Origin: Escherichia coli
GTDB taxonomy: Bacteria > Pseudomonadota > Gammaproteobacteria > Enterobacterales > Enterobacteriaceae
NCBI RefSeq assembly: GCF_002854065.1
Contig: NZ_CP024147.1
Strand: one strand, 5' to 3'
Length of the DNA stretch: 64,000 nucleotides
How positions within the stretch are numbered: position 1 is the first letter of the stretch; every line of letters starts with the position of its first letter. The notes beneath the pieces were generated by a model. It was not told the origin of the DNA and ran no database searches. It saw only the letters and a list, made by a program, of their open reading frames with translations. Position numbers and translations under genes: made by a program. Shown here one piece after another: positions 52,510 through 54,391 of this stretch.

Positions 52510-53178
52510 ATGCGTACCACATCATTTGCGAAAGTTGCAGCTTTATGCGGCTTGTTGGCTCTGTCTGGTTGTGCCTCTAAAATCACCCAGCCAGATAAAT
52601 ATTCTGGTTTTTTAAACAATTACTCTGATTTAAAAGAAACAACCTCGGCTACAGGTAAACCGGTTTTACGTTGGGTAGACCCGAGTTTTGATCAAAGCAA
52701 ATATGACAGCATCGTCTGGAACCCAATCACTTATTATCCGGTACCGAAACCTTCGACCCAGGTAGGGCAGAAAGTTCTGGGTAAAATTTTGAACTATACC
52801 AACACCGAAATGAAAGAAGCGATAGCGCAGCGTAAACCACTGGTTACCACCGCGGGGCCGCGTAGTCTGATTTTCCGTGGGGCCATTACCGGTGTAGATA
52901 CCAGTAAAGAAGGGCTGCAATTCTATGAAGTGGTTCCTGTTGCATTAGTGGTTGCGGGGACGCAAATGGCTACAGGCCACCGTACCATGGATACACGCTT
53001 GTATTTTGAAGGTGAGCTGATTGATGCAGCGACTAATAAACCGGTTATCAAAGTCGTTCGTCAGGGCGAAGGTAAAGACCTGAATAACGAAAGTACGCCA
53101 ATGGCTTTCGAAAATATTAAACAAGTTATTGATGACATGGCGACCGATGCCACCATGTTTGACGTTAACAAAAAGTAG
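52510..53178 (+). CDS. ydcL: Lipoprotein YdcL (DUF3313)
   Basis: 222-aa ORF with lipobox LALSGC. Confidence 0.85.
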   Translation: MRTTSFAKVAALCGLLALSGCASKITQPDKYSGFLNNYSDLKETTSATGKPVLRWVDPSFDQSKYDSIVWNPITYYPVPKPSTQVGQKVLGKILNYTNTEMKEAIAQRKPLVTTAGPRSLIFRGAITGVDTSKEGLQFYEVVPVALVVAGTQMATGHRTMDTRLYFEGELIDAATNKPVIKVVRQGEGKDLNNESTPMAFENIKQVIDDMATDATMFDVNKK

Positions 53179-53186
53179 TTCCAGAC

Positions 53187-53211
53187 GCGCCATCGTTAGA
53201 TGGCGCTTTTT
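53187..53211 (+). terminator. Rho-independent terminator between the convergent ydcL and ydcO
   Basis: GCGCCATC-gtta-GATGGCGC perfect 8-bp stem followed by TTTTT. Confidence 0.8.
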
Positions 53212-53212
53212 A

Positions 53213-54391
53213 TTATCGGTTTCTGTCAGCGATTAAATTCAACACCACGTAACAAACGCCTCCGGCAATTAATCCCCAAAACGCAGAACCAATCCCGACC
53301 AGCGTCAATCCACTTGCCGTTACCAGAAATGCCACCACCGCCGCGTCGCGCTCACGCTCACGCTCATTATGCAGCGCCTGATACAAACTGCCGCCAATGG
53401 TACTCAACAGCGCCAGACCTGCCAGCATCTGGATCCAACTTACGGGCAGGGCAGCCATCATCCCGGTAATGGCACTACCAAACAGACCTGCGAGCAAATA
53501 GAAAATGCCTGCAACGGCAGCTGCCAGCCAACGTTGGTCTTTATCCGGATGCGCTTCCGGGCTTTGGCAAATAGCCGCGGTGATTGCCGCAATACCGACG
53601 GAATAAACGCCGAAAGGGGAAAAAACCAGTGCCAGCAATCCAGTAAATACAATTAATGGCGAAACAGGAGCCGAATATCCGGCTGCTTTCATTGCTGCGA
53701 TACCCGGTGCGTTTTGCGATGCCATCGTCACCAGAAAAAGGGGGAGTGCAACGCTCAGGCTGTGAGCAAACGAAAAATCAGGGGTAATATAAGTGGGGAG
53801 AACGGGTTTAAAGACAACATCAGTTGTGACAACGTCACCTTGCGCGATAACGATCACGATCCCAATAATCATCGCGGCAATTACCGCATAGCGCGGCGCA
53901 ACGGCCTTGGTTGCCAGCCATACCAGCAACATACTTCCACACAACGTAAATTGACCGTCCAGACTGGCAAACGCCTGTAAACCAAAGCGTAATAAAATCC
54001 CGGCAAGCATTGCCGCCGCAAGCGAGTGCGGAATAATGCGCATCAGACGAGCAAAGAGTCCCGTTATGCCGCAGAGGACTATTAACGCGTTGGTGACAAT
54101 AAAAACGCCGATGGCTTCGTTAAGTGTTAGTCCCTGCAATCCGGTGACCAACAAAGCCGCGCCAGGCGTTGACCATGCGGTGAGAACAGGTACGCGATAC
54201 CATAATGTCAGAGTCAGCGTACTGACGCCCATTGCCAGCCCCAGCGCCGTCATCCAGCCAGAGATTTGTGCAGTGGTGGCTCCGGCGACAATCGCTGCTT
54301 GCCAGATTATTGCCGCTGAACTGGCGTAGCCAATTAATACCGCCAGAAACCCCGCCAGTAGCGTGGGTGGAGGAACAGAAAACAGACGCAT
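53213..54391 (-). CDS. ydcO: BenE-family inner-membrane transporter YdcO
   Basis: About 392 aa from MRLFSVPPPTLLAGFLAVLIGY..., highly hydrophobic multi-TM protein. The ORF-track start at 54514 is an extension. Confidence 0.85.
   Translation of the reverse strand: MRLFSVPPPTLLAGFLAVLIGYASSAAIIWQAAIVAGATTAQISGWMTALGLAMGVSTLTLTLWYRVPVLTAWSTPGAALLVTGLQGLTLNEAIGVFIVTNALIVLCGITGLFARLMRIIPHSLAAAMLAGILLRFGLQAFASLDGQFTLCGSMLLVWLATKAVAPRYAVIAAMIIGIVIVIAQGDVVTTDVVFKPVLPTYITPDFSFAHSLSVALPLFLVTMASQNAPGIAAMKAAGYSAPVSPLIVFTGLLALVFSPFGVYSVGIAAITAAICQSPEAHPDKDQRWLAAAVAGIFYLLAGLFGSAITGMMAALPVSWIQMLAGLALLSTIGGSLYQALHNERERERDAAVVAFLVTASGLTLVGIGSAFWGLIAGGVCYVVLNLIADRNR

What the first reader, a model, noticed from the sequence alone, without database searches (positions are those of the whole stretch)
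53179..53212. ydcL and ydcO are separated by only 34 bp containing a single terminator
In K-12 I recall an IS-derived transposase-like gene (insQ/ydcM) between ydcL and ydcO. Here the two converge on one GCGCCATC-gtta-GATGGCGC hairpin and no mobile element is present. This may be the ancestral, uninterrupted junction.
Basis: partly seen in the sequence, partly recalled or inferred. Interest (0 to 1): 0.25.

Follow-up and report, generated by a model that had tools for sequence, protein, structure and literature searches.

The report
Empty IS609 insertion site, ydcL–ydcO
This E. coli strain has the plain 34-base junction between ydcL and ydcO, where K-12 and about 60% of sequenced E. coli carry a 1.75-kb IS609 insertion sequence; this is an ordinary, already documented strain difference.

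Summary
ydcL (52510..53178, +) and ydcO (53213..54391, −) converge. They are separated by 34 bp that hold one strong hairpin, GCGCCATC-gtta-GATGGCGC (53187..53206), followed by TTTTTAT.

K-12 MG1655 has a 1,748-bp IS609 (IS200/IS605 family: decayed tnpA plus intact insQ/tnpB) inserted exactly between window bases 53213 and 53214. It lies 3′ of TTAT and has no target duplication. The insertion splits the ydcO stop codon.

Among 5,426 complete E. coli genomes:
- 2,043 have the empty junction.
- 3,260 have IS609.
- 93 have an IS200C in the same T-tract.
- One has a different IS609-like element at the identical point.

Three outgroup Escherichia clades have the same empty 34-bp junction with diverged spacers, so the empty state is ancestral for the genus. 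Two caveats apply:
- IS200/IS605 excision is scarless, and this window's flanking haplotype groups with occupied alleles. Secondary loss in this lineage therefore cannot be excluded.
- Most other Enterobacteriaceae have two more genes (an EamA transporter and an AraC regulator) between ydcL and ydcO.

The hairpin is a canonical terminator only for ydcL. Overall this is an ordinary, known IS polymorphism of low interest.

The parts
52510..53178 (+). ydcL CDS (DUF3313 lipoprotein-like protein, 222 aa)
   Evidence: ORF; Pfam DUF3313, E 2.8e-62; RefSeq annotation of the identical strain 100416.
53179..53212 (.). 34-bp ydcL-ydcO intergenic spacer
   Evidence: The contiguous junction is present in 2,043 of 5,426 complete E. 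coli genomes.
53187..53206 (+). ydcL intrinsic-terminator hairpin GCGCCATC-GTTA-GATGGCGC (8-bp stem, 4-nt loop)
   Evidence: Terminator scan; fold z = −3.3; stem covariation at 3 of 8 pairs with 100% pairing in 19 distinct homologous hairpins; a hairpin plus T-run follows ydcL in nearly all 80 Enterobacteriaceae loci.
53207..53213 (+). Terminator T-tract TTTTTAT. Its last four bases TTAT (53210..53213) are the IS609 target / transposon-adjacent motif.
   Evidence: In K-12 the IS609 left end abuts ...TTTTTAT|. Five independent IS609 copies all have TTAT 5' of the left end. IS200C in 93 genomes sits in the same T-run.
53213..53214 (.). Exact IS609 insertion point: the K-12 1,748-bp insert lies between these two bases, with no target-site duplication and no ambiguity
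   Evidence: Base-by-base extension of the flanks. The megablast split at query 314|315 is seen in thousands of genomes.
53213..54391 (-). ydcO CDS (BenE-family transporter, 392 aa here; stop codon TAA at 53215..53213)
   Evidence: K-12 YdcO ends ...ADRNRY* because the IS right end supplies Tyr plus TGA; the window's ends ...ADRNR*.
53214..53233 (+). Sequence that would match the guide of the omega-RNA read out of an IS609 sitting at this site (TATCGGTTTCTGTCAGCGAT), directly 3' of the TTAT motif. Together these form the 'donor joint' target. This is an inference.
   Evidence: The K-12 right end ...GGAGGATGTCAA is followed by TATCGGTTTCTG.... The mechanism comes from PMC8612924 and PMC10055086. 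It was not tested here.
53349..53366 (-). In-frame hexamer repeat (CGCTCA)x3 inside ydcO. Other E. coli have x2. It adds Glu-Arg (…NERERERD…).
   Evidence: Read. The 6-bp length difference appears. In the alignment only the window and strain 100416 carry the extra copy.

Best explanation
The 34-bp interval is the intact convergent junction of ydcL and ydcO. It holds the Rho-independent terminator of ydcL: a conserved GC-rich hairpin plus a T-tract.

It is also the unoccupied allele of a polymorphic insertion site. In K-12 and about 60% of complete E. coli genomes, a 1,748-bp IS609 has been pasted immediately 3' of the TTAT that ends the terminator's T-tract, between window 53213 and 53214. IS609 belongs to the IS200/IS605 family. 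It carries a Y1 transposase gene tnpA, divergent from the RNA-guided nuclease gene insQ/tnpB, and has subterminal hairpins and no inverted repeats. The insertion made no target duplication. It replaced the ydcO stop codon with Tyr plus TGA from the element.

The empty state is ancestral for the genus Escherichia. The IS609 insertion is old: tnpA was intact at arrival and later decayed differently in different lineages.

Shown here: the coordinates, the breakpoints, the TTAT/TCAA end rules, the population frequencies and the outgroup states.

Inferred: the single-strand 'peel-and-paste' mechanism, and that this strain's own lineage was never occupied. I put that last point at about 60% against 35-40% for scarless loss or recombinational replacement.
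For: - Sequence and ORFs; terminator scan and fold; hairpin covariation.
- K-12 locus annotation: tnpA pseudogene and insQ between ydcL and ydcO. Exact breakpoints, 1,748 bp, no duplication.
- Protein families: InsQ has HTH_OrfB_IS605, OrfB_IS605 and Cas12f1-like_TNB. The intact IS609 TnpA is Y1_Tnp, E 1.8e-41. InsQ is homologous to ISDra2 TnpB structures, E 1.9e-54, with the RuvC motifs GLDAG, IEDL and NADVNG and both CxxC pairs present.
- Five independent IS609 insertion sites all read TTAT|CCGGTGCGCC...GGAGGATGTCAA|.
- Population counts: 2,043 empty, 3,260 IS609-occupied, 93 with IS200C.
- Outgroup Escherichia L005-L007 are empty with diverged spacers and no insQ.
- tnpA lesions differ among lineages: L96* in K-12 and UMNK88, Y76* in O111 and UCPROB-002, none internal in O121.
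- IS divergence of 0.2-1.2% is comparable to flank divergence of 0.6-1.4%.
- Literature: K-12 has one IS609 copy that never transposed in mutation-accumulation lines (PMC5009759). TTAT and TCAA are common left- and right-end cleavage motifs (PMC9956272).
Against: - Local neighbour-joining trees and informative-site patterns place the window, strain 100416 and an O157-like empty allele next to IS-bearing haplotypes (UCPROB-002, K-12, O121, O111). They do not group with the divergent empty haplotypes that sit apart from the occupied alleles. A single old gain followed by scarless loss in this lineage is a live alternative.
- The locus is visibly mosaic from recombination, so the local trees are weak.
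- An Escherichia lineage 94-96% identical to the window (L004) carries an IS609-like remnant at the same TTAT. The site has therefore been hit more than once, or the polymorphism is older than E. coli.
Confidence: 0.9

Rival explanations
1. Secondary emptiness. The window's lineage once carried IS609 at this site and lost it. Loss was either by TnpA-catalysed scarless excision, which rejoins the flanks exactly, or by homologous recombination with an empty allele from another strain.
For: - The window's flanks group with occupied haplotypes. UCPROB-002 (occupied) is the closest non-identical haplotype, with 0.79% flank divergence against 1.3-1.4% to K-12.
- tnpA was intact when the element arrived, and O121 still has no internal stop.
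- O157:H7, which is empty at this site, carries an intact IS609 tnpA elsewhere that could act in trans.
- Scarless excision is documented for the family (PMC10055086).
Against: - No sequence trace is expected, so there is no positive evidence.
- The rows sampled from the >=99%-identity band to the window are all empty (four rows, H81-H84).
- The IS-bearing UCPROB-002 haplotype is rare (about 11 genomes) and could itself be a recombinant.
- An intact TnpB/omega-RNA would be expected to select against excision products.
Confidence: 0.35
2. The compact junction is the primitive gene order of the whole family, and nothing was ever between ydcL and ydcO.
For: Short gaps are also seen in Salmonella enterica subsp. 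diarizonae and arizonae, two Citrobacter, Atlantibacter and Franconibacter.
Against: In 66 of 80 species-representative loci, an EamA-family transporter gene and an AraC-family regulator gene (about 2.0 kb) lie between ydcL and ydcO. These loci include Citrobacter, Enterobacter, Klebsiella, Raoultella, Kluyvera, Leclercia, Lelliottia, Buttiauxella and Cedecea. Scattered loss is more parsimonious than many gains.
Confidence: 0.2
3. Assembly artefact: the IS was collapsed or dropped from this assembly.
For: None.
Against: The identical contiguous junction occurs in 2,043 complete genomes, including O157:H7 references. Two genomes are 100% identical to the window over 3.4 kb.
Confidence: 0.01

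Closest known systems
IS609 of E. coli K-12 (insQ/ydcM, b1432), IS200/IS605 family
   Same: The window contains the exact unoccupied target of this element: TTAT followed by TATCGGTTTCTG.... The K-12 copy lies between the same two genes, and its flanks match the window base for base up to the breakpoints.
   Different: The window itself has no IS609 sequence. It is the empty allele, not a member of the family.
IS608 (Helicobacter pylori) and ISDra2 (Deinococcus radiodurans): single-strand 'peel-and-paste' transposons with TnpB/omega-RNA
   Same: - Insertion 3' of a fixed tetra- or pentanucleotide (TTAC and TTGAT there, TTAT here).
- Right end finishing in TCAA, as in IS608.
- Subterminal hairpins and no target duplication.
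- TnpB homologous to the ISDra2 TnpB structures 8EXA/8H1J.
   Different: tnpA and tnpB are divergent in IS609, as in IS605, rather than co-oriented. No activity of the E. coli element has been tested here, and the K-12 copy never moved in mutation-accumulation lines (PMC5009759).
'Donor joint' targets of TnpB homing (PMC10055086, PMC8612924)
   Same: The window's sequence TTAT + TATCGGTTTCTGTCAG... is what scarless excision of the K-12 copy would regenerate. It is therefore the predicted target of that copy's omega-RNA.
   Different: This is only a prediction. Rfam gives just a sub-threshold HgcC-like hit over the insQ 3' end and right end (E 0.022, 22 bits against a 50-bit gathering score). 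No cleavage data exist for InsQ in the material I could search.
Rho-independent (intrinsic) terminators
   Same: An 8-bp GC-rich stem, a 4-nt loop and a T-run immediately 3' on the ydcL strand, with structure conserved by compensatory changes.
   Different: On the ydcO strand the hairpin is followed by GUCUGGAACUAC before any U-run. It is not a canonical bidirectional terminator, unlike the homologous hairpins in Citrobacter and Enterobacter, which are flanked by A-runs and T-runs.

Membership tests
IS200/IS605 family (applied to the K-12 insert that is absent from the window) | Encodes a Y1 (HUH) TnpA transposase | tested here: met
   The intact IS609 TnpA from O157:H7 is Pfam Y1_Tnp, E 1.8e-41. 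The K-12 copy aligns over 143 aa with one internal stop.
IS200/IS605 family (applied to the K-12 insert that is absent from the window) | Accessory TnpB (OrfB) RNA-guided nuclease with a RuvC D-E-D triad and a zinc finger | tested here: met
   Pfam HTH_OrfB_IS605, OrfB_IS605 and Cas12f1-like_TNB. Homology to ISDra2 TnpB structures, E 1.9e-54. Motifs GLDAG, IEDL, NADVNG, CAYCG and CQVCG are present, and the ORF is intact in 9 of 9 copies.
IS200/IS605 family (applied to the K-12 insert that is absent from the window) | No terminal inverted repeats; subterminal imperfect hairpins at both ends | tested here: met
   Left end CCCCATCCTTCAGGGCGGGG and right end CCACGTCCTTCAGGGCGTGG. The right-end fold is z = −3.2. 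The left-end fold alone is not significant (z = −0.6).
IS200/IS605 family (applied to the K-12 insert that is absent from the window) | Insertion 3' of a specific short motif, without target-site duplication | tested here: met
   TTAT lies 5' of the left end at 5 of 5 independent sites and the right end always finishes in TCAA. The empty and occupied alleles differ by exactly the 1,748-bp insert.
IS200/IS605 family (applied to the K-12 insert that is absent from the window) | Top strand on the lagging-strand template | tested here: inconclusive
   The window's + strand has GC skew +0.047. That strand is therefore the leading-strand sequence, meaning the lagging-strand template, and the IS609 top strand is + here. 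This is consistent, but it is a single site and the rule is recalled from the literature rather than tested.
Intrinsic terminator (the window's hairpin) | GC-rich stem-loop directly followed by a U-tract on the transcribed strand | tested here: met
   Met for ydcL on the + strand. Not met for ydcO on the − strand, where no U-run follows the stem.
Intrinsic terminator (the window's hairpin) | Terminates transcription in vivo | not testable with these tools
   This needs 3'-end mapping (Term-seq) or reporter assays.
TnpB 'donor joint' target | The transposon-adjacent motif abuts a sequence identical to the omega-RNA guide of the cognate element | tested here: met
   The window reads TTAT|TATCGGTTTCTGTCAGCGAT. 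The K-12 right end is followed by the same 20 nt.
TnpB 'donor joint' target | Cleaved by the cognate TnpB-omega-RNA complex | not testable with these tools
   No InsQ activity data were found. The Rfam hit is only sub-threshold.

The most novel reading that the evidence does not exclude
The T-tract of the ydcL terminator may be a recurrent landing pad for IS200/IS605 elements. Four separate occupancy states were seen within four bases of each other:
- IS609.
- A 16%-divergent IS609-like element in strain HS-02.
- IS200C in 93 genomes.
- A remnant in a non-coli Escherichia lineage.

The empty allele, as in this window, would then be a natural target (TTAT plus a guide match) for the still-intact InsQ/omega-RNA of occupied alleles. 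When occupied and empty alleles meet through recombination, RNA-guided cleavage of the empty allele would bias inheritance toward the IS. This would help explain its 60% prevalence and the preservation of insQ long after tnpA decayed.
Probability: 0.15. Interest if true: 0.45.

Novelty: already known. Interest (0 to 1): 0.15.

Why it matters
It matters little in itself. IS609 (insQ/ydcM) between ydcL and ydcO is a catalogued K-12 feature, and its absence in other strains is routine strain variation.

The modest value lies in three things:
- It gives a clean natural pair of empty and occupied alleles that defines the IS609 ends, the TTAT target and the predicted omega-RNA target.
- It shows that K-12 YdcO has an IS-derived C-terminal residue and stop codon.
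- It flags a terminator T-tract hit repeatedly by IS200/IS605 elements.

This could serve as a natural test bed for TnpB homing in E. coli.

Tried and rejected
- **Rfam scan of the K-12 insert.** No family reached its gathering score. There were only weak HgcC (E 0.022) and RAGATH-18 (E 0.07) hits over the insQ 3' end and right end. This is suggestive of an omega-RNA but is not evidence.
- **Literature searches.** Searches for insQ, ydcO and IS609 with TnpB found nothing specific on this junction or on InsQ activity.
- **First tblastn with YdcO.** This used a wrong frame through my own coordinate slip. It was redone correctly.
- **Ancestral versus excised from local trees.** Neighbour-joining trees of the left, right and proximal flanks, and informative-site patterns, show a mosaic locus. 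The result is not decisive.
- **One search's count of 2,135 'uninterrupted' genomes.** This was an overcount, because the 709-bp IS200C insert is bridged by the tool's piece-joining. A 140-bp query corrected it to 2,043.
- **Assembly artefact and 'K-12 has the same junction'.** Both were considered and rejected.

Full report
**1. The observation**

The window is E. coli DNA with the gene order tehA-tehB-ydcL-ydcO-sutR(ydcN)-rlhA(ydcP).
- ydcL is the + strand ORF 52510..53178.
- ydcO is the − strand ORF whose stop codon TAA occupies 53215..53213 and whose ATG lies at 54391..54389.
- The spacer 53179..53212 is 34 bp.

Pfam gives DUF3313 for YdcL and BenE for YdcO. RefSeq annotation of a strain identical over this stretch (strain 100416, Gambia) uses the same names.

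The hairpin GCGCCATC-GTTA-GATGGCGC lies at 53187..53206 and is followed by TTTTTATTAT. It is the best terminator-like site in the region. It folds far better than shuffled sequence: −16.7 kcal/mol, z = −3.3, 0 of 200 shuffles as good.

**2. The hairpin is a real, conserved terminator, but only for ydcL**

In nearly all of 80 species-representative Enterobacteriaceae loci, a GC-rich hairpin plus T-run follows the ydcL stop codon, with very different sequences.

I collected 19 distinct versions of the 8-4-8 type. Every stem cell pairs. Three of the eight pairs show compensatory double changes:
- G-C to A-U, six times.
- A-U to G-C, three times.
- U-A to C-G, once.

The loop varies freely, and 0 of 500 shuffles reach the observed covariation score.

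On the ydcO strand the stem is followed by GUCUGGAACUAC, not a U-run. No terminator is called there. 'One shared terminator' is therefore an overstatement.

**3. Comparison with K-12**

In MG1655 a tnpA pseudogene (−) and insQ (+, 'RNA-guided endonuclease InsQ/TnpB') lie between ydcL and ydcO.

Extending exact matches from both flanks shows where K-12 and the window diverge. They are identical up to window 53213 on the left and from 53214 on the right. K-12 has 1,748 extra bases between them. There is no duplicated target and no positional ambiguity:
- K-12: ...GATGGCGCTTTTTAT|CCGGTGCGCC...GGAGGATGTCAA|TATCGGTTTCTG...
- Window: ...GATGGCGCTTTTTAT|TATCGGTTTCTG...

The breakpoint falls one base into the ydcO stop codon. 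As a result K-12 YdcO ends ...ADRNRY*, with the Tyr and the TGA supplied by the element, whereas the window's ends ...ADRNR*.

**4. What the insert is**

It meets the defining features of the IS200/IS605 family:
- A Y1_Tnp transposase (Pfam E 1.8e-41 for the intact copy).
- A TnpB with HTH_OrfB_IS605, OrfB_IS605 and Cas12f1-like_TNB domains. It is homologous to the ISDra2 TnpB structures (E 1.9e-54). The RuvC motifs and both CxxC pairs are present.
- Similar subterminal hairpins at both ends.
- No target duplication.

At five independent chromosomal sites (ydcL/ydcO, yedK, a DUF3251 gene, gltX/yfeD, and a TetR gene next to ytfB), the left end is preceded by TTAT and the right end finishes in TCAA. 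This matches the commonest cleavage motifs reported for such elements (PMC9956272).

RefSeq names the intact transposase 'IS609 family'. K-12 is reported to have a single IS609 copy that never transposed in mutation-accumulation lines (PMC5009759).

**5. How common each state is**

Among 5,426 complete E. coli genomes:

| State at the ydcL-ydcO junction | Genomes |
|---|---|
| Contiguous empty junction | 2,043 |
| IS609 at this site | 3,260 |
| 709-bp IS200C in the same T-run, 1-4 bases upstream of the IS609 point | 93 |
| 1,441-bp element, exactly at TTTAT\|TATCGG, about 16% diverged from IS609 and lacking tnpA (strain HS-02) | 1 |

My first figure of 2,135 included the IS200C genomes, because the tool bridges gaps of that size.

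**6. Is the empty state ancestral?**

At the level of the genus, yes. Three Escherichia lineages that are only 87-89% identical to the window over the left flank (L005, L006, L007; the right flank of L007 is 92%) have the same 34-bp spacing and the same hairpin (loop GTAA). They have no insQ. Their spacers have drifted to TTCGGAT, TTCTGAT and TTCTTAT, and two of these do not even contain TTAT.

Within E. coli the insertion is old. Copies at this site differ by 0.2-1.2%, similar to their flanks at 0.6-1.4%. The tnpA lesions are lineage-specific:
- L96* in K-12 and UMNK88.
- Y76* in O111 and UCPROB-002.
- No internal stop in O121.

The transposase gene was therefore intact on arrival and decayed in place.

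**7. Why 'never occupied' is not proven for this strain**

Trees of the left and right flanks, and the raw informative-site patterns, put three empty alleles beside IS-bearing haplotypes: the window, strain 100416 and an O157-like allele. The IS-bearing haplotypes are UCPROB-002, K-12, O121 and O111. These three empty alleles do not group with the more divergent empty haplotypes or the outgroups. The occupied UCPROB-002 haplotype is the window's nearest non-identical relative (0.79% flank divergence).

IS200/IS605 excision regenerates the original sequence without a scar (PMC10055086), so the sequence cannot discriminate between the two histories. O157:H7, which is also empty here, carries an intact IS609 tnpA elsewhere. 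The locus is clearly mosaic, so recombination could equally have moved the IS into, or out of, a window-like background.

I estimate about 60% for never occupied and 35-40% for secondary loss or replacement.

A further complication is L004, an Escherichia sp. 94-96% identical to the window. It has a 46-bp remnant that looks like fused left and right ends at the same TTTTTAT, together with deletion of ydcO. The site has therefore been used repeatedly.

**8. Deeper history**

In 66 of the 80 species loci, a divergent pair of genes fills about 2.0 kb between ydcL and ydcO. One encodes an EamA-family transporter and the other an AraC-family regulator. The pair is absent from all five Escherichia loci, two Salmonella subspecies, two Citrobacter, Atlantibacter, Franconibacter and two Kluyvera loci. 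The compact junction is therefore most likely itself the product of an older deletion. It is ancestral only relative to the IS.

**9. Mechanistic reading (inference from established work)**

The window's TTAT + TATCGGTTTCTGTCAG... is exactly the 'donor joint' that excision of the K-12 copy would regenerate. By the rules shown for ISDra2 and Geobacillus elements (PMC8612924, PMC10055086), it is the target of that copy's omega-RNA.

Several observations bear on this:
- insQ is an intact 402-codon ORF in 9 of 9 copies examined, with roughly equal counts of synonymous and non-synonymous codon differences. That implies moderate purifying selection. Meanwhile tnpA is broken in most copies.
- Rfam gives only a sub-threshold HgcC-like hit over the right end.
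- The + strand has positive GC skew. This places the element's top strand on the lagging-strand template, as expected for the family.

None of this was tested functionally.

**10. Verdict**

The 'ancestral junction' reading is right for the genus, but it is not demonstrable for this lineage and is not true at family depth. This is a known, ordinary IS presence/absence polymorphism. The recurrent use of the terminator T-tract by IS200/IS605 elements is a small extra.

Noticed in passing
L009 4708..6670 (and 65 other loci among L009-L083); absent at window 53179..53212: Most Enterobacteriaceae have an EamA-family transporter gene (−) and an AraC-family regulator gene (+), about 2.0 kb in total, between ydcL and ydcO. 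All Escherichia loci lack both, as do some Salmonella, Citrobacter, Atlantibacter, Franconibacter and Kluyvera loci.
   Followed up: partly
window 53349..53366 (inside ydcO): There is an in-frame hexamer repeat (CGCTCA)x3, where other E. coli have x2. It adds Glu-Arg to YdcO (…NERERERD…). Only the window and strain 100416 share it among the sampled alleles.
   Followed up: partly
L084 3099..3807 (strain 405); equivalent to window about 53209..53212: A 709-bp IS200C sits in the same terminator T-run, 1-4 bases upstream of the IS609 point. It is present in 93 complete genomes that each carry about 20 IS200C copies.
   Followed up: partly
L085 3101..4541 (strain HS-02): A unique 1,441-bp element sits exactly at TTTAT|TATCGG. 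Its TnpB-like part is frameshifted and about 16% diverged from IS609. It has no tnpA and no recognisable IS609 left end. The origin of its first 320 bp or so is unknown.
   Followed up: partly
L004 4705..4750 (Escherichia sp. MOD1-EC7003): A 46-bp fusion-like remnant of left and right ends (CCAGTGCGCCTTATATCCCCGTCCTTCAGTGCGTGGAGGATGCCAA) lies at the same TTTTTAT. It is accompanied by deletion of almost all of ydcO and part of sutR.
   Followed up: partly
L001 5559..5565 (K-12); window 53213..53215: In K-12 the IS609 right end supplies the last codon (Tyr) and the stop (TGA) of ydcO. The reference YdcO is therefore one IS-derived residue longer than the uninterrupted form.
   Followed up: yes
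L001 4311..5519 and eight other IS609 copies (L002, L086, L087, L089, L090, L097-L099): insQ/tnpB is a full-length ORF with the RuvC D-E-D motifs and zinc-finger motifs in 9 of 9 copies. The adjacent tnpA carries stops or frameshifts in most copies.
   Followed up: partly
L008 4669..4800 (Escherichia albertii): ydcL keeps its terminator, with a compensatory stem change to GCGCCGTC/GACGGCGC. However, ydcO and sutR are not found within 4 kb downstream.
   Followed up: no
L001 5456..5572 (+): There is a sub-threshold Rfam hit to HgcC (E 0.022, 22 bits against a 50-bit gathering score). It spans the insQ 3' end, the right-end hairpin and the first bases of the flank, which is where an omega-RNA would lie.
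   Followed up: no
L097 (O91 RM7190, IS609 next to yedK) vs L086 (UCPROB-002, ydcO site): The yedK-site copy differs from the UCPROB-002 ydcO-site copy by only two codons in insQ. This suggests relatively recent transposition between these sites.
   Followed up: no
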